58,454 bases of DNA. Origin: an uncultured Candidatus Saccharibacteria bacterium. GTDB taxonomy: Bacteria; Patescibacteriota; Minisyncoccia; Phycocordibacterales; UBA918. Below, piece by piece: positions 2,558-39,729 of this stretch. The notes under the pieces are model-generated. The model searched no databases. It had not been told where the DNA came from and was given only the letters and a program-made list of their open reading frames with translations. Made by a program: the position numbers and the translations under genes. Positions within the stretch are counted from its first letter, which is position 1. The number at the start of each line of letters is the position of its first letter. The DNA lies in contig CAYRMI010000002.1 in the NCBI GenBank assembly GCA_964425625.1, positions 1-58,454 of the forward strand, read 5' to 3'.

Positions 2558-2668
2558 TAGGCCACTACCTAATGGCACAAGTTATACACAATATAACTAT
2601 TAATAGGTAAAAATCTGGCAGTAGTTTGCTAAAATAGAACAGTAAAGTAATTATTAAAAAAACAAAAT

Positions 2669-3382
2669 ATGAACACACAAAATATTATTAATGCCACTTG
2701 GCAATCCTTAGTTGCTTCCACTCTAGCCATCGCTATAGTGGCGGTTAGCTTCTTTATTATTGAGCCTCAGATGGGTCAGGCAGCCACTAGTGGTCCATTT
2801 ACCATCAAGACTACTATTACCGATGAGATATCCTTTACCGCTAATGCTACCAACGTCACAGCGACTGGTTCTATTAATGGTATTACTGGAGGTACCGCTA
2901 ACGGTTCGACTAGTGTCACAGTGCGTACCAACAGCAACACTGGCTATAGTATGACGATTGCTTTTGCAAGCAACTCGACAGACAATGCCATGAAAGGAGA
3001 TGTGAGTGGTAGTACAGCAATTCACGACTATCCAGCAGTATCATCGACTACGCCAACCTTCCTGTTTTCCACCGCTAGTACCTCTTCGGTGTTTGGTTAT
3101 ACCGTGAGTGCGGATGCCGGTGCTACTGACTTGGCCCAGGCTTTCTTGGATGATGGAGCTGATTGTAATATTCCAATCGGTAGTGGTGGAGCTTACACCG
3201 CAGACCGCTGTTGGATGGAACCAATGACTAGTGCTTTTGAAATAATCGATCGAGGCACAGCGGCTGCTTCTGGCGCCACTAGTACGATCCACTTCCGCGT
3301 GCATGTACCAAACCTACCTAACCCATCGCTAGTAGCCGACACTTATACGGCCACGGCAACCTTGACAGCAGTTAACCAGTAG
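2669..3382 (+). CDS. Secreted WxL-like / pilin-like beta-sandwich protein (paralog 1)
   Basis: N-terminal hydrophobic signal ending near PQMGQA. Motifs GGTANGSTSVTV, GYSMTI and C-terminal TYTATATLTA resemble WxL-fold strands. One Cys pair. Confidence 0.6.
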   Translation: MNTQNIINATWQSLVASTLAIAIVAVSFFIIEPQMGQAATSGPFTIKTTITDEISFTANATNVTATGSINGITGGTANGSTSVTVRTNSNTGYSMTIAFASNSTDNAMKGDVSGSTAIHDYPAVSSTTPTFLFSTASTSSVFGYTVSADAGATDLAQAFLDDGADCNIPIGSGGAYTADRCWMEPMTSAFEIIDRGTAAASGATSTIHFRVHVPNLPNPSLVADTYTATATLTAVNQ

Positions 3383-3402
3383 CGATATTGTAGTCACATC
3401 TT

Positions 3403-4461
3403 ATGACTACAAAAATGTGTGTTCAATTTTGTATCTCTATTGTAGTAGCTGGTTTGGCCATAAGTTTTTTGCCTAACGTTGGTCTAGCCCAAGACAACAC
3501 CCCCACTTCTGATGAGGGTGTTGTTGCTAGTTCTACCGAAATAACTAGTCCAGTGGTGGTGGAGGAAATCCCTTGGTTTCGTATCGAGAAGTTGACGGGT
3601 GATAATCAAGCGATCGGTGACTTTGTGGTGGGGCCAGGGCGGGCGGAGATAGAAGTAAAGCCTGGTCAGACGGTGATTTATGAAATATCAGTCTCAAACC
3701 GAATTAGTGATAATCGCATCTTTGAGCTGACGGTGGAAGACGTGGCTGGTTCAAATGATGCCAGTCAAGCGGTGGTATTGCTCGGTGACGCGGTCGGACC
3801 ATACACGATTAAGGACTATATTTCTTTCCCTAAAAATACCTTCACCCTTCGCCTAGGGGAAAGAGCTCGTATTCCAGTAACGGTATCCATACCACCAAAC
3901 GCTGCTCCGGGTGGCTATTATGGTAGTGTGCTCGTGTCTACAGTGCAGGAAGAGCCCTTAAGTGAAGGACAGACCACTAGGTCACCTATTGTCGCTAGGG
4001 TGGGGACACTATTTTTTGTGACGGTGCCTGGGGAAATGAAATATGAAGGAGAAACCAAAGCTTTGACTCTAAAAAATAATCGTTTTTGGTATGAGAAAGG
4101 ACCGATAGTTTTAAATGTAATTTACGAAAATACTGGTTCGGTTCACCTTAATCCCTACGGCGAATTGCGCATCAAGAATCTGTTTGGTGAGGAGGTAGGT
4201 TTTGTTGAGTTGGAACCTTGGTTTGTTCTCCCTAAATCACTTCGTTCACGAGAAGTGACTTGGGATCGAGAATTGTTGTTTGGGCGCTATGTGGCTAGTG
4301 TCAGCATTAACCGTGGCTACGAGGATATAGTCGATGAGCAATCAGTGGTCTTTTGGGTCTTGCCGTGGAAAGTGGTAGCTGGTATTTTTGCTCTGGTATT
4401 TATCATCTTCTTTGGTTTTAGAATCTTCTTTAGAACGTTTGAGTTTAAACGCAAGACTTAG
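3403..4461 (+). CDS. DUF916/DUF3324-like (CscA-like) membrane-anchored protein
   Basis: Signal peptide; IPVTVSIPPNAAPGGYYGSVLVS...RVGTLFFVTVPG; NTGSVHLNPYGELRIKNLFG; C-terminal TM helix followed by basic tail FKRKT. Confidence 0.65.
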   Translation: MTTKMCVQFCISIVVAGLAISFLPNVGLAQDNTPTSDEGVVASSTEITSPVVVEEIPWFRIEKLTGDNQAIGDFVVGPGRAEIEVKPGQTVIYEISVSNRISDNRIFELTVEDVAGSNDASQAVVLLGDAVGPYTIKDYISFPKNTFTLRLGERARIPVTVSIPPNAAPGGYYGSVLVSTVQEEPLSEGQTTRSPIVARVGTLFFVTVPGEMKYEGETKALTLKNNRFWYEKGPIVLNVIYENTGSVHLNPYGELRIKNLFGEEVGFVELEPWFVLPKSLRSREVTWDRELLFGRYVASVSINRGYEDIVDEQSVVFWVLPWKVVAGIFALVFIIFFGFRIFFRTFEFKRKT

Positions 4462-4470
4462 CTTGTCTCT

Positions 4471-5238
4471 ATGACGCTTCGTTCCTTTACAATCTTGACA
4501 GCAGAAACTCTAGTCTTGACGGGAGTAATTTTGTCTATTTTGTTAGTTGGGGAAGCACAGGTACGGACTAGTACGAGCTATAAGTTAGAAAGTGATAGTA
4601 TCAACTTCGGTGGTGGTTTATCGTCTTCTTCCAACTATTCCCTAGAAAGTACCGGAGGGGAGATAGCAACCGGTAAGTCAGACAGTGCTTCCTATAGCTT
4701 GAGGGCTGGCTATCAGCAGATGCAAGAGGTGTTTATTAGTATGACAGCCCCTGGAAATGTAATAATGACGCCCAGTATAGGCGGTCTTACTGGCGGTACG
4801 GCTAATGGTTCAACTAGTGTGAATGTAATAACGGATAGTCCAAGTGGCTATTCACTAACCATCAGGGCTGAGAGTTCGCCTGCTATGCAAAAAGGGGCTG
4901 ATACTATAAATGACTACGTACCAGAAGCGTCACCCAATCCCGACCCGTCATTTATCACCGCTGCTACTGATGCCCACTTCGGCTTTTCGCCCCAAGGGTC
5001 TGATGTGGTTTTGCGATACCGAAATAATAGTTCAATTTGTAGTGCTGGTTCTCTTAGTACGGCAGAGGTTTGTTGGGATGGGTTTTCAACGTCAGAAAAA
5101 TTACTAGCCTCTGGGGGTGACAATCAACCCAGTGGCGCCACTACCACGCTTTACTTTAAGGTAGAACTGGGCGGTAATGTGACTAGACCGCCAGGAGCTT
5201 ATATTGCCACTACTACCTTAACTGCTTTGCCACTATGA
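4471..5238 (+). CDS. Secreted WxL-like protein (paralog 2) with extra Ser/Tyr-rich N-terminal segment
   Basis: Shares GGTANGSTSV, GYSLTI, a Cys pair, SGATTTLYF and GAYIATTTLTA with 2669-3382. Confidence 0.6.
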   Translation: MTLRSFTILTAETLVLTGVILSILLVGEAQVRTSTSYKLESDSINFGGGLSSSSNYSLESTGGEIATGKSDSASYSLRAGYQQMQEVFISMTAPGNVIMTPSIGGLTGGTANGSTSVNVITDSPSGYSLTIRAESSPAMQKGADTINDYVPEASPNPDPSFITAATDAHFGFSPQGSDVVLRYRNNSSICSAGSLSTAEVCWDGFSTSEKLLASGGDNQPSGATTTLYFKVELGGNVTRPPGAYIATTTLTALPL

Positions 5239-6815
5239 AATATGGTATTGTTTTGCTGTTAATTTTTGCCATATTTATCCCAAGCGCTACTTCGGCAGTG
5301 ACAAGTGATTTTAATATTAGGGCCTTTGTGGGGGATGATATAACTCCGCCCAGTACCCCAGCTTTACTGGCTGCTATGCCAGTGGCGCAAACTCAGATAG
5401 ATGTTGACTGGGGTACTTCAACCGATAACTGGATTTTGGGCGGGTACGTATTGCTGCGCGATGGTCTACCGATTGCGACCACTACTTTGACAAATTATAG
5501 CGATACTGGCTTGACCCCAGCCACGCTTTATAATTATGAGGTTTATGCTTTTGATACCGCCAATAATATTTCTTCCACCTCAAATAGCCTGGCGACCAGT
5601 ACTTTTGCCGTACCAGTTACTCCCACCACCACACCAGCGGTGAGTAAGCCACCGTCAGGTACACAGATACTGATGCTAGAGAATTTCTCGAGCACGGAGA
5701 ATGAGACGTCGGTAAATCTAGCCTGGGACACCAACATGCCGTCTCGCTTCACTCTGCGCTGGGGGCGAACTGATACTTATAATGGTGGTTATATTGAAAG
5801 TGATGTCTATCAGTTAAATCATAAGACAATCATTTCAGATTTGGAACCAGGAACAGTCTACCTTTTTGAACTAATCGGACACTCGGCGTTGGGGCGTACT
5901 GTGCTACTTAAAACGGGTGAATTTACAACTGCTACCAGAGAAGCTAATCGTATTGTACCAAACGTGGAGCGACTAGTGGCGGAAGTGGTCAAAACTGACG
6001 TCCGTTTACAGTTTGCTCTACCGGCTACTGAAGTCGGGGCGCGTGTGCGGGTTGTTAGGAGTCATTTTGGTTGGCCGGCTAGTCCTTATGATGGGGCAAT
6101 TATTTTTGAAGGTAATGCAAATGAAATCTGGGACAGGCAGGCCTTGCGTGATCATAAAGTCCAATATTATACCGTCTTTGTTATTGGCGAGGATGGTAGC
6201 CTTTCTTCCGGGGCAGTGGTGGTGGCCAGATGGGTGGCTGATACAGAAATGGGTACAGGGGAGGGAGAAGAAAAAGATGATAAAGTCGTTGTGCCGATAC
6301 AGCCAGAGCCAGAAATTCTCCTCCCGCTCTTAAGTGAAGATGAGATTGTTATTAAACAAGGAGATAATATCTTTACTTTTTTAACTGAAGCAATTGCACT
6401 CTCTTATCATGAACCATTCAGTATCAGTATTAGTAAAGACGCCTTACCTAAACACCTGAAGGTAATTATAGTGACCTTACTCGATCCAACCGATCAAAGA
6501 CAGAGTTACTCTTTCTTACTTAGGATTAACAAGGACGGGACAGCTTACGAAGCAATGATTGCTCCACTTGAGGTGGCTGGAACTTCACGCTTGCAAGTTG
6601 AAGTATTTGATTTTGAGCAGTTGGTAGTAGGCCGGTATCGTAAGCAAATAGATTTTGTTCTAACCGAAAAGATCACTCCAACAGTCGTTTTCCCGGATGC
6701 ACTAATTCAACCGTTCAAAAATACTTCTGGATTTATATTTGGGACAGGGGTGTTTGCGCTTTTTATTTGGCTATTTTTCTGGCGTCGCGGGCGTAAAACT
6801 GAGGATAAGCTCTAG
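5235..6815 (+). CDS. Fibronectin type III-like repeat surface protein with C-terminal membrane anchor
   Basis: FN3-like WGTSTDN...YSDTGLTPATLYNYEVYAFD and ISDLEPGTVYLFEL. Signal peptide; C-terminal TM plus RRGRK. ATGA overlap with the upstream stop. Confidence 0.75.
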   Translation: MKYGIVLLLIFAIFIPSATSAVTSDFNIRAFVGDDITPPSTPALLAAMPVAQTQIDVDWGTSTDNWILGGYVLLRDGLPIATTTLTNYSDTGLTPATLYNYEVYAFDTANNISSTSNSLATSTFAVPVTPTTTPAVSKPPSGTQILMLENFSSTENETSVNLAWDTNMPSRFTLRWGRTDTYNGGYIESDVYQLNHKTIISDLEPGTVYLFELIGHSALGRTVLLKTGEFTTATREANRIVPNVERLVAEVVKTDVRLQFALPATEVGARVRVVRSHFGWPASPYDGAIIFEGNANEIWDRQALRDHKVQYYTVFVIGEDGSLSSGAVVVARWVADTEMGTGEGEEKDDKVVVPIQPEPEILLPLLSEDEIVIKQGDNIFTFLTEAIALSYHEPFSISISKDALPKHLKVIIVTLLDPTDQRQSYSFLLRINKDGTAYEAMIAPLEVAGTSRLQVEVFDFEQLVVGRYRKQIDFVLTEKITPTVVFPDALIQPFKNTSGFIFGTGVFALFIWLFFWRRGRKTEDKL

Positions 6816-19601: not shown

Positions 19602-20747
19602 ATGCAACCAAAAGTTAAACCATTATCACTCTGGCGCCGAAAATTTGTGTTTGGCAGTTTACTACTAGCTTTTTTGGTTAGCCTGCCAGTTTTTATGTTT
19701 TATGCGACGGGGTACCGTTATGATTTTACTGCCAAAAAACCAACTTTCACAGCGACTGGAGCCTTCTATATTGTCGCTGATACGCCTGATAATGAGATTT
19801 ATTTAGACGATGAACTAGCCACCAATGTTCGTTCTTTTCGCAATGCCTTTTATCTGCAGGGGATAGAGCCGGGTATTCATAAAGTACACGTACAAGCTCC
19901 TTTGGTACATACTTGGGTAAAAGAATTACCCGTGGTTGCACATATCGTGACTGAAGTTAGTACTTTCAACTTACCGTTATTACCACAAGTTAGATTAATA
20001 CCAGAATATTTGTCAGTTAATAATGTCGCGGTGATTTTTGCAAAAAGTTCAACCACCCCCGTCTTGTCATATATCGGTACATCAACCCCTTTCTTAATGG
20101 CTACAACTACCGCTACTTCAACGTATCGTGTAAATCAAGAATACTCACTACTGCAAACTCTTTTTACCGAGCAAGCCTCCACAACTGTCGCGCGAATTTT
20201 ACAGCAAGAGGAGATACGTAATAATAACTTTGGCTTTTCTACTTCATCAAAAATCGATGTTGTAGAGGACCAGTTTGGTACCACCACTGTAGCCCATAAC
20301 AACGTCACTTTGTTTGAGAGGGGAGGAGAGGTCTTTGCTTTAGCTGAGCCGACAAGTTTCCGAGAAGTACCTTATTACTTTTGTACTCCAACTATCACCG
20401 AAGAAGATATAGTAGCTGATGCGACAGAGGCTGAGATCGAGTTAGAAGAGATGATTAGTAAAGAAGAAAATGTAGCAGAAGAAAACGGTACCTGTCGTGA
20501 GGAGATCAAAATCCACAGTCAAGGACAGACAGTGGTGGGTTTTAATTTCTTCCCCACTAATCCAAATTTGGTACTTTTACACTTAACCGATGGGGTGTAT
20601 GTAATCGAGATAGACGATCGGGCCTGGCAAAACGTTCAGCCACTATATTTAGGTAGAGACTTAGAAATGTTGATTTACCGTGATGGCATTTTTATAAAAG
20701 AACAAGGTTTAATCTTCGAGGTTTTGCCGGAAATTTTGGTAATTTAG
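19602..20747 (+). CDS. Membrane-anchored PEGA-like domain protein
   Basis: N-terminal TM followed by YATGYRYDF; TPDNEIYLDD...GIEPGIHKVHV. Confidence 0.6.
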   Translation: MQPKVKPLSLWRRKFVFGSLLLAFLVSLPVFMFYATGYRYDFTAKKPTFTATGAFYIVADTPDNEIYLDDELATNVRSFRNAFYLQGIEPGIHKVHVQAPLVHTWVKELPVVAHIVTEVSTFNLPLLPQVRLIPEYLSVNNVAVIFAKSSTTPVLSYIGTSTPFLMATTTATSTYRVNQEYSLLQTLFTEQASTTVARILQQEEIRNNNFGFSTSSKIDVVEDQFGTTTVAHNNVTLFERGGEVFALAEPTSFREVPYYFCTPTITEEDIVADATEAEIELEEMISKEENVAEENGTCREEIKIHSQGQTVVGFNFFPTNPNLVLLHLTDGVYVIEIDDRAWQNVQPLYLGRDLEMLIYRDGIFIKEQGLIFEVLPEILVI

Positions 20748-23032: not shown

Positions 23033-24163
23033 TTACTTAGACACCAACGCACTAGCTTTAAATGAGTTATTTCCATTATTGGCGTCAATCTGGGTATCAA
23101 CGACTACGCTGAAGTTTTCTAAGCGAGAGCTGGTAACCGCTGGGAACTCGATCGTTAAGACAGCCCTTTCATTAGGGAGGAGAGTCTTTTCATTACCACT
23201 CTGGTAATTATAGTCGCCCGGTAATTTGGCTTGGTATGACCAAACTTCAGAAGTTTTGTTGCCAATATTGTGTACTGAAAATTGGATAGCACCGACTTCT
23301 CCCGCTCTGATAGTGTTGGTCTTGGTAAAGACACCTGATTTTAAAGTTCCAACACCAAGATAAACAACGGCTAGATCGGGAGTTCCTTTAGGATTAGAAA
23401 CCGGTAACTCGTAGATATAGACGGGATTTGAATCAACGAAAGTCTCTACTGGTTTGGTCGGTTTAGTGTTGGTAGGTTTAGTGACTATATTTGGTGTTGT
23501 TGTGGCTACTGGCACAACTGTAGTTACTGGAGGCTTTACGTCTGGAGAGGTTGTTGCAACCGCTGGGGTAGTGGTAGCTACTCCAGCCACTTCAGGTGCT
23601 ATTGGTTTAGTGGTGGTACTGATTTCAGTCTCGATTGCAATCGAAGCGTTGACAATCGTGGTGGTGGCACTTTGACTAATAGTCGAGGAGGTACTATTGG
23701 AACGATAAAAATGTATAGTATACCCAACGTCAGTAAAACGCTCATTTTTTGTAATGATAGAAAGGTTAATCGACTCGACTGATCCTAAATCATACTTTTT
23801 CTCACATTCCAAGCTGGAGAAATTATTGCCGGAAGTTGAAAGATTTATAGAAGACACGGTGTCCTGATTACAGGCATAACTGAAGGCATAAGTGCCCCTG
23901 TTGTTTGATTTAGTCCAAGAAATAGAAAATGGCTGTCCGGAGTTAACTAAGGTAGCACTGGTATGTAAATTCAATTCGATGGTTTCTAGAGGATTGTAGG
24001 TATAGACGCTTCCGGCGATAGAGGCTAAGGAAGACAGGGCAGAAGGGAAGATGTTAACAATTTGGACTGCTAGCCAAGCGATTAAAATAATAACTCCAAC
24101 TAGGCCCGCTAAGGCCAAAGTCTTGATGACTGGTTGCTTTTGCTCGGGGGTAATATTATTCAT
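23033..24163 (-). CDS. Membrane-anchored surface protein, Thr/Pro linker, C-terminal CARDB-like Ig domain
   Basis: N-terminal TM; TTP-rich linker; PDLAV...FSVHNIGNK...VVVDTQIDANNGNN. Confidence 0.7.
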   Translation of the reverse strand: MNNITPEQKQPVIKTLALAGLVGVIILIAWLAVQIVNIFPSALSSLASIAGSVYTYNPLETIELNLHTSATLVNSGQPFSISWTKSNNRGTYAFSYACNQDTVSSINLSTSGNNFSSLECEKKYDLGSVESINLSIITKNERFTDVGYTIHFYRSNSTSSTISQSATTTIVNASIAIETEISTTTKPIAPEVAGVATTTPAVATTSPDVKPPVTTVVPVATTTPNIVTKPTNTKPTKPVETFVDSNPVYIYELPVSNPKGTPDLAVVYLGVGTLKSGVFTKTNTIRAGEVGAIQFSVHNIGNKTSEVWSYQAKLPGDYNYQSGNEKTLLPNERAVLTIEFPAVTSSRLENFSVVVDTQIDANNGNNSFKASALVSK

Positions 24164-24272
24164 AGTGGCTACCTTTTACCATAGATTAGATATTATGTCA
24201 ATCATAGTGAAAAGTTCGCTTGCTACTTATTGACTTTTTTGTATAGTGTGCTATTATTAAAAAACTTATATT

Positions 24273-24962
24273 ATGCAAGTAGAAACCTGGGATCAATTGA
24301 TAGATGCGTTGCTGTTGCGAAAAATATCATTCGTGGTGACATTTTTTGTGGTTTTTCTTTTGTCATATGCCTTATTATCGTGGTTAGATTGGTTACCTGA
24401 GCCAATCATAGAATCAGAGACAACAGTTGAAGAAAAAGTTTTAGAAACCGCTTTAATGATGGGGGTAGTTGACTCTTTAATATCAAAAGATGAAGAACAG
24501 CCAGTGATACTTCCAAGCAGACCATTATTTCCTGATACTATAGTAATAGATAAATTAGACAGGACAATTCCAGTACTAAATCCTACTTCAAAGACGGTTG
24601 AAGATCTGGACGCCTCGCTTCTCTATGGAGTAGTAAGACATCCTGATTCGGCGACACTCGAACAAATCGGTACAGTGTTTGTGCTAGGACATTCTAGCTA
24701 TCTACCTACCGTGCTCAACCGAAATTTCCAAGCTTTCAATGGAATTCAGAATTTACAATTTGGTGACACTATTCGTCTGCAGTCAGAAGAAGTCGAATAC
24801 GTATATCGAGTCGATCGAGTATATCGAGCCAAAGCTCAGGATGTAACTGTACCGATAGCCGGTGATGTCCAGCGCTTAGTTTTGGCCACCTGTAATAGTT
24901 TTGGTACTGTAGATGACCGCTATATTGTCGAGGCCGGCTTACTAGAGACGAAAACTCTCTAA
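24273..24962 (+). CDS. Sortase family transpeptidase
   Basis: N-terminal TM; GHSS (His); LVLATC (TLxTC-like Cys); DRYIVEA (Arg). Confidence 0.85.
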   Translation: MQVETWDQLIDALLLRKISFVVTFFVVFLLSYALLSWLDWLPEPIIESETTVEEKVLETALMMGVVDSLISKDEEQPVILPSRPLFPDTIVIDKLDRTIPVLNPTSKTVEDLDASLLYGVVRHPDSATLEQIGTVFVLGHSSYLPTVLNRNFQAFNGIQNLQFGDTIRLQSEEVEYVYRVDRVYRAKAQDVTVPIAGDVQRLVLATCNSFGTVDDRYIVEAGLLETKTL

Positions 24963-24991
24963 TTGACAAAATCGATATTATAAGATATCAT
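24963..24991 (+). promoter_or_regulatory. Near-consensus promoter for the large Ig-repeat gene
   Basis: TTGACA-17-TATCAT. Confidence 0.65.
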
Positions 24992-25150
24992 TTTACAAAC
25001 TTACTATTGTTCCTCCCGCCAAGCTAGTAGCTGGCAAGTCCTTTCTCTCCTCCTAATCAGTTTAAAAGTAAATCTAGGCTTAGACTCTAGGTTTAGTTCG
25101 TGGTTTTTATAACTCTTGCGTACATGGGTGTAGGTAGGGGTTCAAAAATT

Positions 25151-28100
25151 ATGAATAAAAGAAAAGACTATATGTTGTTTAATTACATTACAAAAAAAAT
25201 AGTATTAATACTAACCATCTTTTTCGTTGTGGCGGGGGCCTTTTCAGGCGACCTAGGCAACTTACAGAATGGTTCTACTTTATTTGTTCCCCAAACCGTT
25301 TCGGCCTTTGAGCTTACTCCGCCACCACTACCGGATCCGATTGTGCGGACTTGTGTAGTGACGGCTAGTGCCTATGAAGTACCAACTGGAGCAGATTTGG
25401 TAATTTCTTGGCAGACTACAGGCTATACTATCTATACGCTGAATGGTCAGACAATCAATGGACCAAGCGGATCTAAAACTTTCCACAACATTCAAGAAAG
25501 TGATTCCTACACCCTAGTGGCATCTGATGAAAGTGGTAATACCTGTACTTCAAAAGTAACTGTTTATTGTATACCAGTACCACCACCAACTTGTACGCTG
25601 ACCCCAACCACTAAAACAATTAACAGTGGTGAAGCGGTTACCCTAGCCTGGACTACTACCAATGCCAATAGTGCTACCTTGACTGATTTTGGTACGGTGT
25701 CACTCAATGGTTCACAAGGCACTGGCGCTCTAACCGCTAGCAAAACTTATGTCTTATCCGTTTTAGGTAAGAATGGTAATACTATTAGTTGTCAGTCAGT
25801 GATTACGGTAACTCCACCAGTCCCCACGTTCTGTGAATTGAGAATTACCAAGTCGGTTGATAAAACGTCTGCTCGACCTGGTGATGAAGTTAATTACTCT
25901 ATTTTTATAAAGAATATTGGTACAGGTAACTGTAGTGGAAGTGGTGTGAAGATTGTTGATGTACATGATTCACAACTGACATTTATTAGTGCCGGCCAGT
26001 CTAGCAATATACTCCCTGGCTACACTGATATTCCTCTCTACACTGCCAGTACTAGGACGATTGTCTGGAACGGTGACGTCTTAACACCAGGCGAAGAGGG
26101 AACCATGACCTGGAAAGCTCGAATAAATAGTCTGGCCTGTGACACTTCAAAGTTGGTCAAAAATACTGCTAAGGCTACGGCTTTGGAGTTGGGTAACTAT
26201 ACGCAGTGGGTAAATAGCAATATTGTCGAGACCACGGTTACGGCTAATGCTTGTCCGATTCCTGCTCCGACTTGTTCTATGACTCCAGCCAGTATTACTA
26301 TCAACTCTGGTGAAGCAGTGACTTTGACTTGGGTCACTACTAATGCTTCGACCACTAGCCTAACTAGCTTTAACACCGTCCCTCTTAATGGTTCACAAAA
26401 CACTGGTGCTCTAACCGCTAGCAAAACTTATGTCTTGTCGGTCTTGGGTAAGAATGGTAATACCATTAGTTGCCAGTCGGTTATCAATGTAAAAGATACT
26501 CCACCAGCTCCCTCTTGTGATACTTTTACCGCTAACCCAAGTACTATCTTAAAGGGAGGAACTTCGACCTTAGCTTGGACTACTAGTAACATTACTCGGG
26601 TAGTTATAGATAACGGAATTGGTGAAGTGAGAGCGACTGGTACTTTAAGCGTATCGCCACTGTCGACGATTGAATATACACTTAAGGCTTACGGTGTAAG
26701 TGGAGCAGAAGCAACCTGCAAGGCTAAAATTACGGTTAACGAAATACCAGTTATTCCATTACCAGAATGTCTTTCTTTTGTTGCCTCACCTAGTACTTTG
26801 CCAGTTGGAGGTGGAAATGTAGTATTAACTTGGACTACCAAAAATGGTATTAGCGCCTCAATCTTGCCAACGATTGGAGCTGTCAGTTTAAACGGTTCGA
26901 CCACGGTAGCGGTGGCCACTTCGACCAACTTTACCTTAACGGTGCTTGGTCAAAATAATAAGTCAGTGTCATGTGTGGCTCCTGTTATAGTGACTCCTCC
27001 GGTGCCTGTACCGTTTACTTGTGCTAATAACGTCAATTTCTCGGCCAACCCAACTAAGATTAGTCGTGGTGATAATAGTGTTCTTATTTGGACTACTAAT
27101 GGGGTTGATAGCTTAAGTTTAAATCAGGGAATTTCTGCCACTGGTTTAAGTAGCTCAGTGACAGTAGAACCACAAACTACTACTACTTATACACTAACAG
27201 CCAAAAAGGGATCTGAGACAATTTCATGTCCAGTGACAGTGGAAGTAACTACCGGTGGCGGGGGAGGCGGGTCATCATCTCCAACTTGTGAACTAACTGT
27301 TTCCAAGAATAAGATTAAGTCTGGTGATACGGTTACGTTGCGCTGGGATAGCAACCGAGCTACCAATCTAGAATTGATTGATTCAAAAAATAAAGTCTTG
27401 GTGACAACTAAAAACAAGCTAGCAGATGACAAGGACGAATTATTTGATGGTTCAATTAAGGTTTCACCTAAGTCTGATACTACCTATACTTTGACCGTAG
27501 AGCGTGGTTCACGCGATCGGGTGTGTAAAGTAAAAGTAGAGGTTGAGGATAAGCTCGTCGTGACACAGGTGAGAGAGCAAAAGCCACTTATTGCTGGTAT
27601 AGCTTTGACGCAAGTACCATACACTGGTTTTGCGGCTGGTCCAATTATGACCATGTCATTCTATCTGCTATTGATTAGTTGGGCACTTTACTTAGCTTAT
27701 GTACTGGTGATAAAGCGTGATGTGATTGGTGGTTACAAATTAGCGCCTTCTCACATTGTAGCCGAAGCACCAACCCCAGAAGAAATTAGACCGGAATTGT
27801 TTGTTGCTTCAGTTAAAACTCCAATAGCACCAACGTTGATGCATGTTCAACCAAATAATTTGCCGGTTGCTCAAGCAGTGGTCGGTTATGCCAAAAGCCC
27901 CGAAGTGGCTCAGCTGACAGTAGCTCCTACCGTGAAGAGTTTTTCTCAGCAAGCAACGGATGAGGTGGTTACAGCGATAGAAAACCATGCTCATGCTAAG
28001 CGAGCACTACTCTCGAGCGATGCTATTCGACAACTGATTGGTTCAACTAGCAGTTTTGAAGACAGTATCGCAACTCTCAATGAAGTAATTTTGGAAGCAA

Positions 28101-28534
28101 AATCCAAGTATCCATCAGAAGATGGTTGGGTAGTGATTAACGAGAAGCGAATGCATGAACTCTGTCTAAGTTGTAAGGCTAAGCCAGTACCTTCTAGTGT
28201 AGCGCCTTATATACCGACAGTTATACCAGATGGTTCTGGCTCGCTTGCAGAGGCGATTGTGACCGGTAATATTATAGCGGCTTACGAGATGATTGGTCAC
28301 CGACCGATGTTTGCTTTAGCTGACGCAGCTACTGATATGGACTCAGTTTATCGTTATCGTCGTGGTGAAAAAGAAGTTATCTCGGAGTTACTCCTTGAGG
28401 CGACGGCTAAATTAACCGATGATCAATTAAAGAAAATTATTGAAGCTTTAACCGGAGCCTTGGATGGTACTTATACCGATGAGGCGTCAGCGGTGAAGAT
28501 GGCGATTATGAAGGCGGTTAAGGTAGTAGCATAA
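25151..28534 (+). CDS. Large surface protein: Cys-bridged Ig-like repeats, DUF11-like domain, VPYTG motif, TM helix, about 270-aa C-terminal domain
   Basis: Repeated PTC.L...TL.WTT units; LRITKSVDK...PGDEVNYSIFIKNIG (DUF11-like); VPYTG at 27614-27628 then a hydrophobic helix. Start could be 25100, 25151 or 25172. Confidence 0.8.
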   Translation: MNKRKDYMLFNYITKKIVLILTIFFVVAGAFSGDLGNLQNGSTLFVPQTVSAFELTPPPLPDPIVRTCVVTASAYEVPTGADLVISWQTTGYTIYTLNGQTINGPSGSKTFHNIQESDSYTLVASDESGNTCTSKVTVYCIPVPPPTCTLTPTTKTINSGEAVTLAWTTTNANSATLTDFGTVSLNGSQGTGALTASKTYVLSVLGKNGNTISCQSVITVTPPVPTFCELRITKSVDKTSARPGDEVNYSIFIKNIGTGNCSGSGVKIVDVHDSQLTFISAGQSSNILPGYTDIPLYTASTRTIVWNGDVLTPGEEGTMTWKARINSLACDTSKLVKNTAKATALELGNYTQWVNSNIVETTVTANACPIPAPTCSMTPASITINSGEAVTLTWVTTNASTTSLTSFNTVPLNGSQNTGALTASKTYVLSVLGKNGNTISCQSVINVKDTPPAPSCDTFTANPSTILKGGTSTLAWTTSNITRVVIDNGIGEVRATGTLSVSPLSTIEYTLKAYGVSGAEATCKAKITVNEIPVIPLPECLSFVASPSTLPVGGGNVVLTWTTKNGISASILPTIGAVSLNGSTTVAVATSTNFTLTVLGQNNKSVSCVAPVIVTPPVPVPFTCANNVNFSANPTKISRGDNSVLIWTTNGVDSLSLNQGISATGLSSSVTVEPQTTTTYTLTAKKGSETISCPVTVEVTTGGGGGGSSSPTCELTVSKNKIKSGDTVTLRWDSNRATNLELIDSKNKVLVTTKNKLADDKDELFDGSIKVSPKSDTTYTLTVERGSRDRVCKVKVEVEDKLVVTQVREQKPLIAGIALTQVPYTGFAAGPIMTMSFYLLLISWALYLAYVLVIKRDVIGGYKLAPSHIVAEAPTPEEIRPELFVASVKTPIAPTLMHVQPNNLPVAQAVVGYAKSPEVAQLTVAPTVKSFSQQATDEVVTAIENHAHAKRALLSSDAIRQLIGSTSSFEDSIATLNEVILEAKSKYPSEDGWVVINEKRMHELCLSCKAKPVPSSVAPYIPTVIPDGSGSLAEAIVTGNIIAAYEMIGHRPMFALADAATDMDSVYRYRRGEKEVISELLLEATAKLTDDQLKKIIEALTGALDGTYTDEASAVKMAIMKAVKVVA
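25586..26485 (+). repeat. Two copies of a 219-bp Ig-domain unit (25586-25804 and 26267-26485)
   Basis: Offset 681 bp. GCTCTAACCGCTAGCAAAACTTATGTCTT is identical at 25727 and 26408. Confidence 0.9.
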
Positions 28535-28548
28535 CTCTTATTTTAGAA

Positions 28549-28593
28549 AAAACAAAAAGACCGTTCCCTTAATGGGAACGGTCTTTTTGTTTT
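28549..28593. terminator. Bidirectional terminator
   Basis: 20-bp stem AAAACAAAAAGACCGTTCCC-TTAAT-GGGAACGGTCTTTTTGTTTT between convergent genes. Confidence 0.8.
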
Positions 28594-28596
28594 ACT

Positions 28597-30366
28597 TTAA
28601 AGTTTCTTAGTCTCAATTTCGGTCAAAAGATGATTGCCTAACTTATGAAGGTCAATTTGTTTACTTTCTCCACTACGCGATTCTAGAGTGACATTTTTAG
28701 CTTCTACTTCTTGGTCACCAATTACAACAAAGTAAGGGAGTTTGGCTTGCTTAGCCGAACGTATCTTCTTACCCATTGAATCACGCGCATCATCAAAAGT
28801 GGCACGGATACCGACAGCCTTTAGAGCATGGTAAACTTCTTCAGCATAAGGCATATGCACATCAGCTACTGGAATAATCCGCACTTGTTCGGGCGCTAGC
28901 CAGAGTGGGAAGTGGCCGGCTAAGTGTTCAATCAAGACTGCACTAAAACGTTCAATTGAACCCATAATGGCACAGTGAATCATAACAATACGTTCTTTCT
29001 CTCCTTTCTCATTGATACAAGTCAGATCAAAGCGCTCAGGTAAGTTCATGTCAAGTTGAATAGTGGCAACTTGATGTTCACGACCTAGTGAGTCCTTGGC
29101 CATAAAGTCCAACTTTGGACCGTACATGGCGGCTTCTCCAGGAGCTTCGAAGTAATTAGCGTTTCTTTCTTTTGCAATTTCTCGTAATGAATTTTCAGCA
29201 CTGTCCCAAATCTCTTTTGTCCCTAAATATTTACTCAGCTCTGTTGGTTCGTGAAAGGAGAGGCGAACTCTAAGGTTGAAACCAAAGGTACTATAGAAAG
29301 TATCTATAATGTCCCAGATTTTGAAGAACTCCTCTTTTACTTGTGCATGACGACAGAAGACATGAGAATCATCTTGGGTAATCGAAAGAACACGAGTAAG
29401 TCCGCCTAGTTCGCCTGATTGTTCATCCCGGTAAACCATCGTAGTTTCGGCATAGCGTTGAGGCATGTCACGGTAACTGTGTGGTTGGCGGTCAAATATC
29501 TGCGTGTGATGGGGGCAATTCATGGGCTTGAGAGCGTATTCTTTGCCCTCTCTGGTAGTGATACGGAAAAGCTCATCAGCAAATTTTTCCCAATGACCAG
29601 ATGTAACATAAAGGTCTTTTTTTGTGATATGAGGAATTGTCACTCGCTGATAGCCATGTTTTTCTCGTAATTGCCAGATGTAAGTATCGAGTTGATGCCT
29701 AATCATGGTGCCTTTGGGTGTCCAGAGCGGAAGCCCAGCTCCGACGAGTTCTGAGAAGGTAAATAAATCATGTTCCTTACCAAGTTTGCGGTGGTCGCGC
29801 TTTTTTGCTTCCTCAATTTGATTAAGATAGGCATCGAGCTCGTCTTTTGAGTTAAAAGCCAGACCATAGATACGACTAAGCATAGGTTTTTTTTCATCAC
29901 CTCGCCAGTAGGCGCCAGCGACTTTGTCGAGCTTGAAACTATCGGCAGGAATTTCTTCATGCGGATTTTCGGTATGACCACCACGACAAAGGTCAATAAA
30001 TTCACTTTTACCGGTACCACAAGTGTAGAGGGTGATGGTTTCGTCCCGGCTAGCAATCTCGTCGATAAGTTCTAGCTTATAGGGGTTGCCAGCAAATATT
30101 TGTTTGGCTTCCTCTGGCGTTACTTCTTTATGAGACCAGGTAGTCCAAGTATTGAGCAGTTTTTTCATCGCTTTTTCTATATCTTTGAGACTATCATCAC
30201 CCAAGGTTGGGCCACCGGAGAAATCGACGTCATAGTAAAAACCAGTATCGATGGCTGGCCCTAAGGTAAGTTTGGCATGAGGATAGGCGTCTAGGATAGC
30301 TTTGGCCATTACGTGTGCTAGAGTGTGGCGCTTAAATTCTAGTGCTGGGTTTTGTTGACTGCGCAT
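28597..30366 (-). CDS. thrS: Threonine--tRNA ligase (lacks the N-terminal TGS domain)
   Basis: RHTLAH, DLCRGGH, RDHRKLG, KPMNCP, YRDEQSGEL, IQLD, HCAIMGSIERF. Confidence 0.96.
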   Translation of the reverse strand: MRSQQNPALEFKRHTLAHVMAKAILDAYPHAKLTLGPAIDTGFYYDVDFSGGPTLGDDSLKDIEKAMKKLLNTWTTWSHKEVTPEEAKQIFAGNPYKLELIDEIASRDETITLYTCGTGKSEFIDLCRGGHTENPHEEIPADSFKLDKVAGAYWRGDEKKPMLSRIYGLAFNSKDELDAYLNQIEEAKKRDHRKLGKEHDLFTFSELVGAGLPLWTPKGTMIRHQLDTYIWQLREKHGYQRVTIPHITKKDLYVTSGHWEKFADELFRITTREGKEYALKPMNCPHHTQIFDRQPHSYRDMPQRYAETTMVYRDEQSGELGGLTRVLSITQDDSHVFCRHAQVKEEFFKIWDIIDTFYSTFGFNLRVRLSFHEPTELSKYLGTKEIWDSAENSLREIAKERNANYFEAPGEAAMYGPKLDFMAKDSLGREHQVATIQLDMNLPERFDLTCINEKGEKERIVMIHCAIMGSIERFSAVLIEHLAGHFPLWLAPEQVRIIPVADVHMPYAEEVYHALKAVGIRATFDDARDSMGKKIRSAKQAKLPYFVVIGDQEVEAKNVTLESRSGESKQIDLHKLGNHLLTEIETKKL

Positions 30367-37685: not shown

Positions 37686-38300
37686 ATGTCTAGTATCGGC
37701 TATAACTATACCAAGGGTTTTACGTTAGTTGAATTATTGGTAGTAATCACGGTCATTGGGATATTAAGTACCGTGGCCATGATGAGTTTTCAGGAGGTGC
37801 GTGAGCAAGCCAGAGATAAGACCCGCATGGCGACTATCAAAGAAATTCAGCTGGCTCTTGCGTCCTATTTTGATTTGTATGGGGAATATCCTGAGCCTTG
37901 TGATTCCGATGTGGCAGATTGGTCTGGTAGTGTAAAAGCCGGGACATTTCAATGTGATGATCCTGACCAACCTTTCATCTTAGGTAATCCTGGAGCTGGT
38001 CGGCCGTTTGTCCCAACTTTTATGGAGCAAATGCCTAGAGATCCTTTGTATGAAACCCTGCCAGACAATTTTGGTTATGTTTACACTACTAATGCGACTC
38101 GGGATTCCTATAAGTTAATGGTCTACGGATCAGTTGAAGATGACTTAGTGGAGTGGAATGATCCGTTGGCAAGATGTCCCAAGGCTTGTGATGGTGAGGC
38201 TGGTACAGCTGATGTTTGCAATAACGGATCGGCTGAATTCACCGCCACCTTTGCTAGTACTTATGCCATCTATGCTGGATCGGCTATGTTATGCAAATAA
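37686..38300 (+). CDS. Type IV pilin / GspG-like prepilin
   Basis: KG^FTLVELLVVI class III signal, ARDKTR, C-terminal Cys residues. Confidence 0.9.
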   Translation: MSSIGYNYTKGFTLVELLVVITVIGILSTVAMMSFQEVREQARDKTRMATIKEIQLALASYFDLYGEYPEPCDSDVADWSGSVKAGTFQCDDPDQPFILGNPGAGRPFVPTFMEQMPRDPLYETLPDNFGYVYTTNATRDSYKLMVYGSVEDDLVEWNDPLARCPKACDGEAGTADVCNNGSAEFTATFASTYAIYAGSAMLCK

Positions 38301-38359
38301 ATTGACATAGCAATAGTATTTTGAGCCCCAGACTTTAAGGACATGATATAATTTAAAAA

Positions 38360-39142
38360 GTGAAAAAATTTACTCAAAAAATTAAAACTGGCTTTACCCT
38401 TATTGAACTTTTGCTAGTGGTGGCGGTGATTGGGATTTTGGTGACCGTAGTGACAATGAATTATAGCAACACTGCTGCGAATTCAAGAGACGCCCAGCGT
38501 CAGGCTGATTTACGCAATCTACAACAAACGCTTGAGGCCTACAAAAACCGTCATGGTCAATACCCTGAGCAATGTACACCAAAAGGTGGAGCAAATGGTT
38601 GGTCGGGCCAAATCGGCACGGACTATGAATGTGCTAATACAGACGAGCCGTTCATCTTAGGTAATCCTGGAGCTGGTCGGCAGTTTGTCCCTGATTTTAT
38701 GCCAGTCTTACCAACCGACCCCAAGCTACCAAGCGGGCGGACTGATGTTGGTTATGTCTATACGACTAACGCAGAGGGTTCAGTTTACAAAATAATGGCC
38801 ATGAATACCGTGGAGGCTGATGAAGGTCTGATTAGTGCTGGTGTAGGCGACAATAACCCGTACATGCATCCATTTAGAAGTTGTGATATGCAGGTTGGTA
38901 TTACCTCTAGTGGGGATGCTTCAGGTCTTCTTGGTTCGACTCTGTGTAGTGTTGTGTACACAGCACCAGCTGCGAGTTTCATCCCAGACTACTGCTTCTT
39001 AAATCATTCTCGTTTTAAAAGCTCCTATGCTCTCTGGGGTGGGGCAGCACCTATCTTAGGCGTGGTTCCTGATACTGATTTTGCTTTAAGTCCGGCTGAA
39101 AGGTATTCTGTGAAAGATACAGCCGCAATAGTGTGTAAATAG
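38360..39142 (+). CDS. Type IV pilin / GspG-like prepilin
   Basis: TG^FTLIELLLVV, SRDAQRQADL, LPTDP. Confidence 0.9.
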   Translation: MKKFTQKIKTGFTLIELLLVVAVIGILVTVVTMNYSNTAANSRDAQRQADLRNLQQTLEAYKNRHGQYPEQCTPKGGANGWSGQIGTDYECANTDEPFILGNPGAGRQFVPDFMPVLPTDPKLPSGRTDVGYVYTTNAEGSVYKIMAMNTVEADEGLISAGVGDNNPYMHPFRSCDMQVGITSSGDASGLLGSTLCSVVYTAPAASFIPDYCFLNHSRFKSSYALWGGAAPILGVVPDTDFALSPAERYSVKDTAAIVCK

Positions 39143-39150
39143 TAATAAAT

Positions 39151-39729
39151 ATGTTTAATAATAAATATTTAGTAGGATTTACTTTAGTAGAATTATTGGT
39201 AGTGATTAGTATAATAGGTCTCCTTTCCACTATTTTGTTTGCCAGTTTTGATGAGTCGAGAGCACAAGCTAGAGATAAAGCACGACTGGTGGCGCTAAAA
39301 GAGATGCAACTAGCAATTGAGCAGTATCGTTCTCAGACTGGTGAATATCCGCAAGCAAATTGTGGAAGTGCTACCGATGATTATAGTAGTAATTTCGCTG
39401 GTCCTGCTCCTGCGATATATGCAGGGGTACCAGACTTTTTAGAATGTGTAAGTAATGCTTATCGCGCTTTTTATATAAAAGGGTTGGTACCAGACTATAT
39501 CGCTCGATTACCCTTTGACTCCAAGTTTGAACTTGAAAATGATCGGGGGTTTTATTACCGTTCTGATAAATACTCCTACAAGCTGATGGCATATGATGTG
39601 GTGGAAGCTCTGACGGTAGACAGTTTTACGCATGAGTTTGCACGCTGTCCTAGCGCAATTGGAGCCTGTGCCGGAGGTGTACCGACCACTACCTATGCTG
39701 TTTATAGCCCAGGGGCGGAAGATTGGTAG
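39151..39729 (+). CDS. Type IV pilin / GspG-like prepilin
   Basis: VG^FTLVELLVVI, ARDKAR, G.YP. Confidence 0.9.
   Translation: MFNNKYLVGFTLVELLVVISIIGLLSTILFASFDESRAQARDKARLVALKEMQLAIEQYRSQTGEYPQANCGSATDDYSSNFAGPAPAIYAGVPDFLECVSNAYRAFYIKGLVPDYIARLPFDSKFELENDRGFYYRSDKYSYKLMAYDVVEALTVDSFTHEFARCPSAIGACAGGVPTTTYAVYSPGAEDW

What the first reader, a model, noticed from the sequence alone, without database searches (positions are those of the whole stretch)
24273..28534. Sortase plus adjacent VPYTG substrate carrying a roughly 270-aa domain after the membrane helix
Seen: a sortase (His, LATC, Arg) lies directly upstream of a 1100-aa Ig-repeat protein in which VPYTG (residues about 839-843 of the long ORF) and a hydrophobic helix are followed by about 270 more residues, including a helical-looking C-terminal region. 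Known: classical LPxTG substrates end within a few basic residues of the helix. Inference: sortase cleavage would release a membrane-tethered cytoplasmic domain, suggesting a one-protein attachment-sensing or signalling device. A divergent CARDB-like gene may belong to the same locus.
Basis: partly seen in the sequence, partly recalled or inferred. Interest (0 to 1): 0.65.

Follow-up and report, generated by a model that had tools for sequence, protein, structure and literature searches.

The report
Sortase substrate with conserved cytoplasmic tail
In a group of ultra-small (Patescibacteria) bacteria, the main surface protein that a sortase enzyme would clip and fix to the cell wall is made as one chain with a conserved, previously undescribed 190-residue domain that stays inside the cell, an arrangement not seen in classical sortase substrates.

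Summary
A sortase gene (24273..24962) lies directly upstream of a 1127-1144 aa surface protein built of Ig-like repeats. In that protein, VPYTG (nt 27614-27628) and a membrane helix are followed by 272 more residues. Independent assemblies show no frameshift.

The arrangement defines a family. The tail domain has no Pfam, NCBIfam, PADLOC or PDB sequence match. It occurs in 494 protein clusters and at least 72 Patescibacteria species.

- 63 species have the same direct fusion.
- 5 species join the tail through a −1 frame change at a conserved A9 tract.
- 3 species have lost the extracellular part but keep a membrane-anchored tail right after the sortase.
- No truly free-standing tail gene was found.
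- A sortase lies upstream in all 64 loci with enough sequence.

Topology and the reduced forms place the tail in the cytoplasm. Its predicted fold weakly but consistently resembles the lid and collar domains of clamp-loader subunits, without an ATPase core.

Best reading: sortase splits the protein into a wall-bound adhesin and a membrane-anchored cytoplasmic module. Nothing yet supports a signalling role. This is a new variant of a known kind.

The parts
24273..24962 (+). Sortase with an N-terminal membrane anchor. Catalytic residues are His140 (24690-24692), Cys207 (24891-24893) and Arg216 (24918-24920). It is nearest to class D sortases but far below the class cut-offs.
   Evidence: Pfam PF04203, E 9.6e-18. 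NCBIfam class D scores 39 bits against a cut-off of 165. The best PDB match is 2LN7, E 4e-5. H, C and R are conserved in 67 orthologues.
25100..28534 (+). Whole substrate ORF, 1144 aa from GTG 25100. The likely start is ATG 25151, giving 1127 aa. The end coordinate includes the stop codon.
   Evidence: Intact in independent contigs.
25151..25255 (+). Likely N-terminal Sec signal: a basic n-region (MNKRK) followed by the hydrophobic core IVLILTIFFVVAGAF.
   Evidence: Hydropathy scan and start-codon context. Orthologues begin in the same way.
25337..27553 (+). Extracellular part: seven ~80-aa Ig-like repeats, each with a Cys pair. Two repeats are near-identical. A DUF11 domain sits at aa 247-362 (nt 25838-26185).
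   Evidence: Pfam DUF11, E 1.8e-11. Repeat listing. Cys positions.
27554..27613 (+). Conserved stalk before the motif: LVVTQVREQKPLIAGIALTQ (family consensus R.Q.P.V.GI.L).
   Evidence: Conservation over 72 loci.
27614..27628 (+). VPYTG, an xPxTG sortase recognition pentapeptide. The presumed cleavage is between T and G.
   Evidence: Cleavage is inferred, not shown.
27629..27715 (+). Stub (FAAGP; family consensus FEAGP) plus a membrane helix with conserved T, F, Y, L, W and Y residues.
   Evidence: Hydropathy. Conservation.
27716..27958 (+). Cytoplasmic linker, predicted disordered. It starts with R-D just after K872 and carries two conserved short motifs: IRPELF (27785-27802; family IRPDVF) and NLP..VVGY (about 27857-27889; family NLPTG.PVVGY).
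   Evidence: AF2 pLDDT 51-81. The motifs are visible in the homologues.
27959..28531 (+). Conserved acidic cytoplasmic tail domain of ~190 aa. It has two subdomains: a small alpha/beta part and a helical bundle. It matches no described family.
   Evidence: AF2 pLDDT about 90. 494 representative clusters. No Pfam, NCBIfam, PADLOC or PDB sequence hit. Foldseek top hits are clamp-loader subunits. pI 4.3-5.2.
23033..24163 (-). Divergently transcribed 376-aa protein with an N-terminal membrane anchor and a weak Ig/CARDB-like C-terminus. It is syntenic with the sortase; membership in the system is undecided.
   Evidence: Weak Pfam hit, E 0.029. Found at the same position in about 60 loci at 29-50% identity.

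Best explanation
The locus encodes a dedicated sortase and its substrate. The substrate is a two-module polypeptide.

1. The N-terminal module, made of Ig-like repeats, is exported through Sec.
2. The VPYTG motif, helix and basic residues stop transfer across the membrane.
3. The sortase cuts between T and G and joins the Ig part to the cell wall.
4. What remains is a short external stub (G-FAAGP), a sequence-conserved membrane helix, a flexible linker and a conserved acidic ~190-aa cytoplasmic domain.

This leftover is not waste. It is the second functional product, a membrane-anchored cytoplasmic module that reaches the membrane by riding on the substrate's sorting signal.

Its predicted fold resembles the lid and collar of clamp-loader subunits, and there is no ATPase core. 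Its most likely role is protein-protein interaction or oligomerisation at the membrane, for example organising the sortase or secretion site. DNA binding or catalysis is less likely.

**Shown:** the architecture, its conservation, the sortase linkage, and the existence of cleavage-independent anchored forms.

**Inferred:** the cleavage itself, persistence of the fragment, and the organiser role.
For: **The fusion is real and selected.**
- Independent contigs show no indels.
- 63 of 72 species genomes have the direct fusion.
- Most of the best 150 of 494 representative clusters are long proteins with the domain at the extreme C-terminus. They carry [VILT]P[YHQE]TG-F[ED]AGP, a helix and R/K before it.

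**The sorting signal is real.**
- P, T and G are invariant.
- A sortase lies upstream on the same strand in all 64 loci with enough DNA, with the catalytic H/C/R conserved.
- The L074 paralogue ends VPHTG + helix + 22 aa.
- The unshifted product in L004 and L057 ends VIKKKVS*.

**The leftover has a life of its own.**
- The stub, the helix residues and the tail are better conserved than the extracellular part. This is not expected of a disposable signal.
- Three species (L038, L045, L048) have lost the Ig part and the motif. They keep a hydrophobic hairpin plus tail starting at or within 27 nt of the end of the sortase gene, which mimics the predicted cleavage product.
- The five 'split' species keep the tail translationally joined through a conserved A9 −1 slip site. 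Third-position-biased divergence (4/4/23 over 37 codons) shows that the −1 frame is read from the tract onward.

**Fold.** Every one of the top 50 PDB hits is a clamp-loader/RFC subunit or RuvB (best E 2.7e-3). The best viral-library hits are again DNA pol III gamma/tau. The domain is acidic.
Against: - No cleavage, anchoring or topology has been measured.
- The fold similarity is weak (TM 0.32, rmsd 12-15 Å, E about 1e-3) and has no sequence support.
- All the genomes are related and the whole gyrB-to-dnaE block is syntenic. Sortase adjacency is therefore partly inherited rather than independent evidence.
- The organiser role is a guess from the fold and from the reduced forms; no partner has been identified.
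- The strongly conserved 20-residue stalk before the motif is unusual for sortase substrates and could mean something else happens there.
Confidence: 0.45

Rival explanations
1. Sortase cleavage, or attachment of the adhesin, changes the state of the membrane-tethered tail. The tail then passes a signal to the cytoplasm. This would be a built-in version of the leftover-peptide sensing known in Streptococcus gordonii, or a Notch / adhesion-GPCR-like logic.
For: - The architecture allows it: cleavage would release a conserved stub, helix and domain.
- There is a precedent for sensing sortase leftovers. The S. gordonii two-component system SGO_1180 senses the membrane-retained C-terminal peptide (PMC11326707).
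- The conserved external stub GFEAGP and the conserved helix could be read by a partner.
Against: - The tail has no kinase, receiver, cyclase, HTH or anti-sigma similarity.
- It is acidic, so direct DNA binding is unlikely.
- No two-component genes were found among the annotated genes of the window.
- The three reduced species make the anchored tail with no cleavable input. There the module would be constitutively 'on'.
Confidence: 0.2
2. The protein is an uncleaved transmembrane receptor or adhesin. It stays in one piece, with Ig repeats outside, one helix and a cytoplasmic domain. The VPYTG region is a conserved juxtamembrane element, and the neighbouring sortase acts on other proteins.
For: - The stalk and motif region is conserved over about 25 residues, more than is usual for sorting signals.
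- The whole block is syntenic by descent.
- Cleavage is untested.
Against: - The conservation pattern is exactly xPxTG, with P, T and G fixed and positions 1 and 3 free.
- The same stalk and motif occur in products that end classically: the L074 paralogue and the unshifted products of L004 and L057.
- The sortase sits 60-340 nt upstream on the same strand in most loci.
Confidence: 0.15
3. The tail is a pre-cleavage helper only. It holds or targets the precursor (stop-transfer, retention, localisation, folding control) until the sortase acts, and is then degraded.
For: - The short basic tail of classical signals serves to retain the precursor (PMC12445088). A larger domain could do the same job more strongly.
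- In the frameshift lineages most product may lack the tail.
Against: - It does not explain why three species keep the anchored tail without any substrate part.
- It does not explain why a 190-aa domain with about 24-40 invariant residues is kept for a job that a few lysines can do.
- Tail-less products (L074, and the unshifted products of L004 and L057) look like competent substrates.
Confidence: 0.12
4. The fusion is an artefact or an accident: a mis-assembled or read-through fusion of a surface-protein gene with an unrelated downstream gene, with no functional meaning.
For: - In six related genomes the two parts are in different frames.
- Gene callers list many short stand-alone 'tail' proteins.
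Against: - The window ORF is reproduced without indels in four runs.
- 63 species have the direct fusion.
- Every frame break sits at an A9 tract that is reproduced in three independent studies each.
- The −1 frame is under coding selection from the tract onward, before any start codon.
- The linker carries conserved motifs.
Confidence: 0.02

Closest known systems
Classical LPXTG cell-wall sorting signal substrates of Gram-positive bacteria (Schneewind model; reviewed in PMC12445088)
   Same: An N-terminal signal peptide, an xPxTG pentapeptide, a hydrophobic segment and then basic residues. A cognate sortase with the His/Cys/Arg triad is encoded next door.
   Different: - The classical signal ends the protein within a few basic residues. 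Here about 270 residues follow, including a conserved folded domain.
- The stub, the helix and the stalk are sequence-conserved.
- The motif is VPYTG. The library search found no paper using it as a sorting motif.
Class D sortases with a dedicated adjacent substrate (Bacillus anthracis SrtC/SrtD, PDB 2LN7; Clostridium perfringens SrtD, PDB 4D70)
   Same: These are the best sequence matches. The one sortase / one neighbouring substrate layout is typical of class D (own knowledge).
   Different: The score is far below the NCBIfam class D cut-off (39 against 165 bits). The recognition motif differs from LPNTA / LPxTA, and the host is a Patescibacterium.
Sensing of the sortase-cleaved C-terminal peptide by a two-component system in Streptococcus gordonii (cited in PMC11326707)
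   Same: The membrane-retained leftover of a sortase substrate has a biological role after cleavage.
   Different: There the leftover is a roughly 30-residue peptide read by a separate histidine kinase. Here the leftover carries its own 190-aa cytoplasmic domain, and no kinase was found among the annotated genes of the window.
Domains II-III (lid and collar) of clamp-loader AAA+ subunits (E. coli gamma, delta and delta-prime; RFC)
   Same: The predicted fold of the tail domain gives these as the top hits in both structure libraries.
   Different: There is no ATPase core and no sequence similarity. The protein is membrane-tethered and acidic, and the scores are weak (E 2.7e-3, TM 0.32).
dnaX-type programmed −1 frameshifting at A AAA AAG (E. 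coli tau/gamma; own knowledge)
   Same: In relatives (L004, L057) the tail is reached only by a −1 shift at ATA AAA AAA AAG, which contains the same heptamer. The short and the long product would share an N-terminal part.
   Different: This does not occur in the window, which is directly fused. No stimulatory element was examined, and transcriptional slippage or phase variation at the A9 tract would explain the data equally well.

Membership tests
Sortase (Pfam PF04203) | Sortase domain match above the curated cut-off | tested here: met
   64.6 bits against 26.6, E 9.6e-18.
Sortase (Pfam PF04203) | Catalytic His, Cys (TLxTC-like) and Arg | tested here: met
   H140, C207 (LATC) and R216. Conserved in 67 orthologues. 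Aligned to the TC and R of 2LN7 and 4D70.
Class D sortase (NCBIfam NF033746) | Score at or above the class cut-off | tested here: not met
   39.2 bits against 165. Class E scores 26.6 against 160, and class C 17.5 against 160. Nearest to class D, but unclassified.
[quoted passage not shown] | N-terminal secretion signal | tested here: met
   MNKRK followed by a hydrophobic core at aa 34-52. No dedicated signal-peptide predictor was available.
[quoted passage not shown] | xPxTG pentapeptide with conserved P, T and G | tested here: met
   VPYTG in the window. Across 72 loci: VPYTG 69, VPHTG 2, TPYTG 1. The clusters also show L/I/T at position 1 and H/Q/E at position 3.
[quoted passage not shown] | Hydrophobic membrane segment a few residues after the motif, followed by basic residues | tested here: met
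   Helix at aa 848-872, then K-R. The same holds in all fused loci.
[quoted passage not shown] | The signal is at the extreme C-terminus (short charged tail, then stop) | tested here: not met
   272 residues follow the helix. 266-328 aa follow the motif in 66 fused loci.
[quoted passage not shown] | Cleavage between T and G and linkage to peptidoglycan | not testable with these tools
   Needs enzyme assays or proteomics.
Clamp-loader / AAA+ lid-collar fold | Significant structural superposition | tested here: inconclusive
   The hits are consistent but weak: E 2.7e-3, TMq 0.32. In the viral library, E 0.07-0.55, with one 113-column match at rmsd 3.8 Å.
Clamp-loader / AAA+ lid-collar fold | AAA+ ATPase core (Walker A and B) | tested here: not met
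   The ordered domain is only ~190 aa, and no AAA family was hit in Pfam or NCBIfam.
Leftover-peptide sensing circuit (S. gordonii type) | Histidine kinase and response regulator associated with the substrate or sortase | tested here: not met
   No kinase or regulator domain was found in the 33 window ORFs put through Pfam.
Programmed −1 frameshift (relatives only) | Slippery X XXY YYZ heptamer at the frame junction, with coding selection in the −1 frame upstream of any start codon | tested here: met
   A AAA AAG in L004 and L057, and A AAA AAA in L064, L070 and L077. An A9 tract sits at all 8 frame breaks, but in only 1 of the in-frame loci. Codon-position differences are 4/4/23. The tract length is reproduced in three studies each. 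Two protein products have not been observed.

The most novel reading that the evidence does not exclude
Sortase acts here as a maturation protease for an intracellular protein as well as an anchoring enzyme. One gene yields a wall-bound adhesin and a membrane-anchored, clamp-loader-collar-like oligomeric module. That module couples surface-protein output to a cytoplasmic process, as a site organiser or as a feedback signal. In some lineages the ratio of tail-bearing to tail-less product is set by a conserved dnaX-like −1 recoding site.
Probability: 0.25. Interest if true: 0.85.

Novelty: new variant of a known kind. Interest (0 to 1): 0.7.

Why it matters
**For sortase biology.** The rule that a sorting signal ends the protein is built into the textbooks and into every substrate-prediction tool. 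Here is a whole family that breaks it: hundreds of clusters and at least 72 species. The leftover of sortase cleavage can therefore be a full-sized, conserved protein in its own right. Prediction pipelines that demand a C-terminal signal will miss these substrates. Gene callers also mis-split some of them.

**For Patescibacteria.** These organisms are mostly uncultured and live attached to other cells. This locus is a conserved, probably major surface-protein system that sits among housekeeping genes. It contains an undescribed cytoplasmic domain family and a candidate recoding site.

**Testability.** The module can be tested outside its host. The sortase, the motif peptide and the tail domain can all be expressed in laboratory strains.

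Tried and rejected
- **Known families for the tail.** I found nothing usable in Pfam (E up to 10), NCBIfam, PADLOC, or PDB sequence and profile searches. The weak hits to DUF6907 (E 0.39) and OSCP (E 0.12-0.62) were dismissed.
- **'The tail is a separate gene in orthologues'.** At first this looked true for L003, L004, L057, L064, L070 and L077, and for many short database proteins. I rejected it. Every break is a −1 shift at an A9 tract, the −1 frame is under coding selection before any start codon, and the called start codons are not conserved.
- **Assembly or homopolymer error as the cause of those breaks.** Rejected for five of the six species: the same A9 tract recurs in two species at one position and three at the other, and contigs from three independent studies confirmed it at each of the two sites checked, L004 and L064. 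It remains possible for L003, which comes from a 13x contig.
- **Mis-assembly of the window ORF.** Rejected.
- **Other sorting signals in the window.** None found.
- **DNA-binding or released transcription factor idea for the tail.** Disfavoured, because the domain is acidic, pI 4.3-5.2.
- **RNA evidence for transcripts or slippage.** No RNA runs could be listed.
- **Literature.** Sortases are known to be common in candidate-phyla-radiation bacteria (PMC6744442). I found nothing on VPYTG, on this tail, or on frameshifting in Patescibacteria.
- **The second 'NLPTG' motif in the linker.** It is not an xPxTG match and lies on the cytoplasmic side, so I did not treat it as a sortase site.

Full report
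**1. What is in the window**

The ORF at 24273..24962 (+) is a sortase. It matches Pfam PF04203 with E 9.6e-18. It has an N-terminal membrane anchor and the catalytic residues His140, Cys207 (in LATC) and Arg216. Its closest curated class is D, but the score of 39 bits is far below the cut-off of 165. Its best solved relatives are the class D enzymes 2LN7 and 4D70.

A long ORF starts 141 nt downstream on the same strand and ends at 28534. It is 1144 aa from the first possible GTG at 25100. The likely start is ATG 25151 (MNKRK...), which is followed by a signal-peptide-like hydrophobic core. The exported part has seven Cys-paired Ig-like repeats of ~80 aa and one DUF11 domain.

VPYTG lies at residues 839-843 of the long ORF (nt 27614-27628). 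A hydrophobic helix follows at 848-872, then K-R-D and 272 more residues.

The ORF is not an assembly product. Contigs from four public runs, from wastewater, soil and freshwater samples of at least three studies, cover 24200-28600 without any insertion or deletion. It is the only xPxT[G/A/S]+helix signal in a real ORF in the 58-kb window. The rest of the window is ordinary Patescibacteria housekeeping DNA: gyrB, thrS, dnaE, rpoBC, ribosomal proteins and pilin-like genes.

**2. The tail is a conserved, undescribed domain**

AlphaFold2, run with a 50-sequence alignment, gives a disordered ~80-residue linker. A confident domain follows at tail residues 82-271, with pLDDT about 90. It has a small alpha/beta subdomain and a helical bundle.

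The domain has no match in Pfam (E up to 10), NCBIfam, PADLOC or PDB sequences. A word-indexed search found 172 relatives, all unnamed Patescibacteria proteins. A full HMM scan of 1.84 billion cluster representatives found 494 at E ≤ 1e-3 and 157 at E ≤ 1e-30.

Of the 133 new representatives listed, 97 are longer than 500 aa and carry the domain at the extreme C-terminus. Nearly all of these have [VILT]P[YHQE]TG-F[ED]AGP, a helix and R/K before it. The domain is acidic, with pI 4.3-5.2. It has about 24-40 invariant residues, for example ExxAH, DGW, SLAE, RP, and DG.Y.DE..AV.

**3. Systematic comparison of loci**

A scan of one genome per GTDB species returned 72 loci, nearly all labelled as Patescibacteria: Paceibacterota, Kaiserbacteria, Nomurabacteria and Parcubacteria. 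Three carry other names that look like mis-binned contigs.

A sortase homologue lies upstream on the same strand in all 64 loci that hold more than about 3 kb upstream. Its H/C/R triad is conserved in 67 sequences. The block is syntenic throughout: gyrB, the reverse-strand 350-aa protein, sortase, substrate with tail, thrS (−) and dnaE (−).

The 72 loci divide as follows:

| Architecture | Species | Notes |
|---|---|---|
| Direct fusion | 63 | As in the window; 266-328 aa follow the motif |
| Two frames | 5 | Joined at an A9 tract (section 5) |
| Reduced | 3 | L038 (=L006), L045, L048 |
| Cut by contig end | 1 | L072 |

Over 72 non-redundant loci (the window and earlier loci included, duplicates removed) the motif is VPYTG in 69, VPHTG in 2 and TPYTG in 1. 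The stalk (R.Q.P.V.GI.L), the stub (GFEAGP) and several helix residues (T, F, Y, L, W, Y) are conserved. Fixed P, T and G with free positions 1 and 3 is the signature of sortase recognition.

Two further observations show that the same stalk, motif and helix work as a classical signal. A paralogue in L074 ends VPHTG + helix + 22 residues. The unshifted product in L004 and L057 ends ...VIKKKVS*.

**4. Topology**

The protein has one signal peptide and one later helix, with K/R on the far side. This places the tail in the cytoplasm.

The three reduced forms point the same way. They have no Ig part and no motif: VPYTGFEAGP has decayed to, for example, ALGVFGGGP. They keep a hydrophobic hairpin plus linker and tail, and the ORF starts at or within 27 nt of the end of the sortase gene. 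These proteins look like the predicted cleavage product made directly.

**5. The 'split' orthologues are not split**

Six species do show one (L003, L004=L054, L057, L064, L070, L077).

In every case the frame change sits at a run of exactly nine A, and the tail frame is −1. Only one of the in-frame loci has an A9 anywhere between the motif and the domain (L044, where it is in frame).

- **Type 1 (L004, L057).** The sequence reads GTC ATA AAA AAA AAG GTT TCT TAG. The zero frame gives a textbook sorting-signal end, VIKKKVS*. The −1 frame gives KKKGFLGF(R/K)FREPV..., which is homologous to the post-helix sequence of the fused proteins and runs on into the tail.
- **Type 2 (L064, L070, L077).** The sequence reads GAA AAA AAA ACG ATG A.., just before the domain.

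Between L004 and L057, the first 37 codons after the tract in the −1 frame differ at codon positions 1/2/3 by 4/4/23, and 30 of 37 residues are identical. L057 has no start codon in that frame before codon 37. That stretch is therefore translated in the −1 frame by ribosomes coming from upstream.

The A9 length is reproduced in contigs from three independent studies for each type. No RNA runs were available. The tail is thus reached by ribosomal −1 frameshifting (A AAA AAG is the E. coli dnaX heptamer; own knowledge), by transcriptional slippage, or by tract-length variation. In any of these cases the link between sorting signal and tail is maintained, and both tail-less and tail-bearing products may be made. 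I found no genuinely free-standing tail gene.

**6. Fold of the tail**

Foldseek against the PDB returns only clamp-loader and RFC subunits and RuvB among the top 50 hits. The best has E 2.7e-3, about 200 aligned columns and TM 0.32.

The viral library again puts DNA pol III gamma/tau-like proteins on top, with E 0.07-0.55. One 113-column match has rmsd 3.8 Å.

The signal is weak but consistent. I read it as a resemblance to the lid plus collar (domains II-III) of clamp-loader subunits. This reading rests on the hit list and secondary-structure order, because the tool gives no target coordinates. There is no ATPase core and no sequence similarity. This is a lead, not a family assignment.

**7. 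Mechanism**

The best-supported reading is a sortase-split two-module protein. Export, stop-transfer at the helix and cleavage at T|G by the neighbouring sortase give a wall-linked Ig adhesin. They also leave a membrane-anchored cytoplasmic module: stub, conserved helix, linker and tail.

Three things argue that the leftover is a functional product:
- the conservation of the stub, helix and tail;
- the cleavage-independent reduced forms;
- the maintenance of the link through recoding sites.

The collar-like fold, the acidity and the lack of catalytic or signalling signatures favour a protein-binding or oligomerising role at the membrane, possibly organising the sortase or secretion site. The reduced forms, which stay next to the sortase, fit that better than a cleavage-triggered signal.

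Cleavage, persistence of the fragment and the organiser role are inferred and untested. Rival explanations, with my estimates, are a signalling device (0.2), an uncleaved receptor (0.15), a pre-cleavage helper only (0.12) and an artefact (0.02).

**8. Comparison with what is known**

Classical sorting signals consist of LPXTG, a hydrophobic domain and a short positively charged C-terminal tail (PMC12445088). This family meets every feature except the last.

Leftover peptides of sortase substrates are known to be sensed in S. gordonii (PMC11326707). Those are short peptides read by a separate kinase.

Sortases are known to be common in candidate-phyla-radiation bacteria (PMC6744442). In the searchable library I found nothing on VPYTG signals, on this tail or on recoding in these organisms.

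**9. Verdict**

This is a new variant of a known kind with a new domain family. Interest 0.7.

Noticed in passing
L004 6959-6985 (=L054, L005), L057 8815-8840, L064 1353-1375, L070 1452-1475, L077 4120-4145, L003 about 6825: In six related species the tail is in the −1 frame relative to the surface protein. The frame change is always at an A9 tract (A AAA AAG or A AAA AAA). The −1 frame shows coding-type divergence before any start codon, and the tract length is reproduced in independent studies. This is a candidate programmed −1 frameshift, transcriptional slippage or phase-variable site that would give tail-less and tail-bearing isoforms.
   Followed up: yes
L006 7001-7972 (=L038), L045 8575 onward, L048 8515 onward: These are reduced forms. 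The tail ORF begins at or within 27 nt of the end of the sortase gene. There are no Ig repeats and the motif has decayed. Two hydrophobic segments precede the linker and tail.
   Followed up: partly
L074 9837-11351; L075 9639-11429: A second substrate gene lies downstream of the tail-bearing one. The L074 paralogue ends VPHTG + helix + 22 aa, a classical signal. The L075 protein has VPETG + helix and then a further hydrophobic stretch before the stop.
   Followed up: partly
window 27785-27802 and about 27857-27889: Two short motifs (IRPELF, family IRPDVF; NLP..VVGY, family NLPTG.PVVGY) are conserved inside the otherwise variable, predicted-disordered cytoplasmic linker. The first reaches pLDDT 70-81, so it may dock on the domain or on a partner.
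   Followed up: no
window 24324-24611: Contigs from runs X1, X3 and X9 carry a second variant of the sortase's N-terminal / linker coding region. It has about 21 substitutions in 231 nt, while the rest of the locus is near-identical. This looks like a local strain-level diversity hot spot.
   Followed up: no
window 23033-24163 (−): A 376-aa membrane-anchored protein with a Thr/Pro-rich middle and a weak Ig/CARDB-like C-terminus. It is transcribed divergently from the sortase and sits at the same position in about 60 related loci (29-50% identity). No family match.
   Followed up: partly
window 37686-39729: Three consecutive genes (204, 260 and 192 aa) each carry the N-terminal methylation motif of type IV pilin-like proteins. 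They lie just upstream of an SMC gene.
   Followed up: no
window 1-6815: The first 2 kb are GC-rich (0.55 against about 0.43 elsewhere) and hold a 618-aa ORF (552-2408) with no Pfam match. Three more ORFs without matches follow (2669-5238), then a 526-aa fn3-containing protein (5235-6815).
   Followed up: no
L003 10020-14552: The dnaE gene of this relative (1510 aa) carries an intein with a LAGLIDADG endonuclease domain, according to precomputed Pfam hits. The window's dnaE (1082 aa) does not.
   Followed up: no
window 19602-20747: A 381-aa ORF with an N-terminal hydrophobic segment and no Pfam or NCBIfam match, between a glycosyltransferase gene and gyrB.
   Followed up: no
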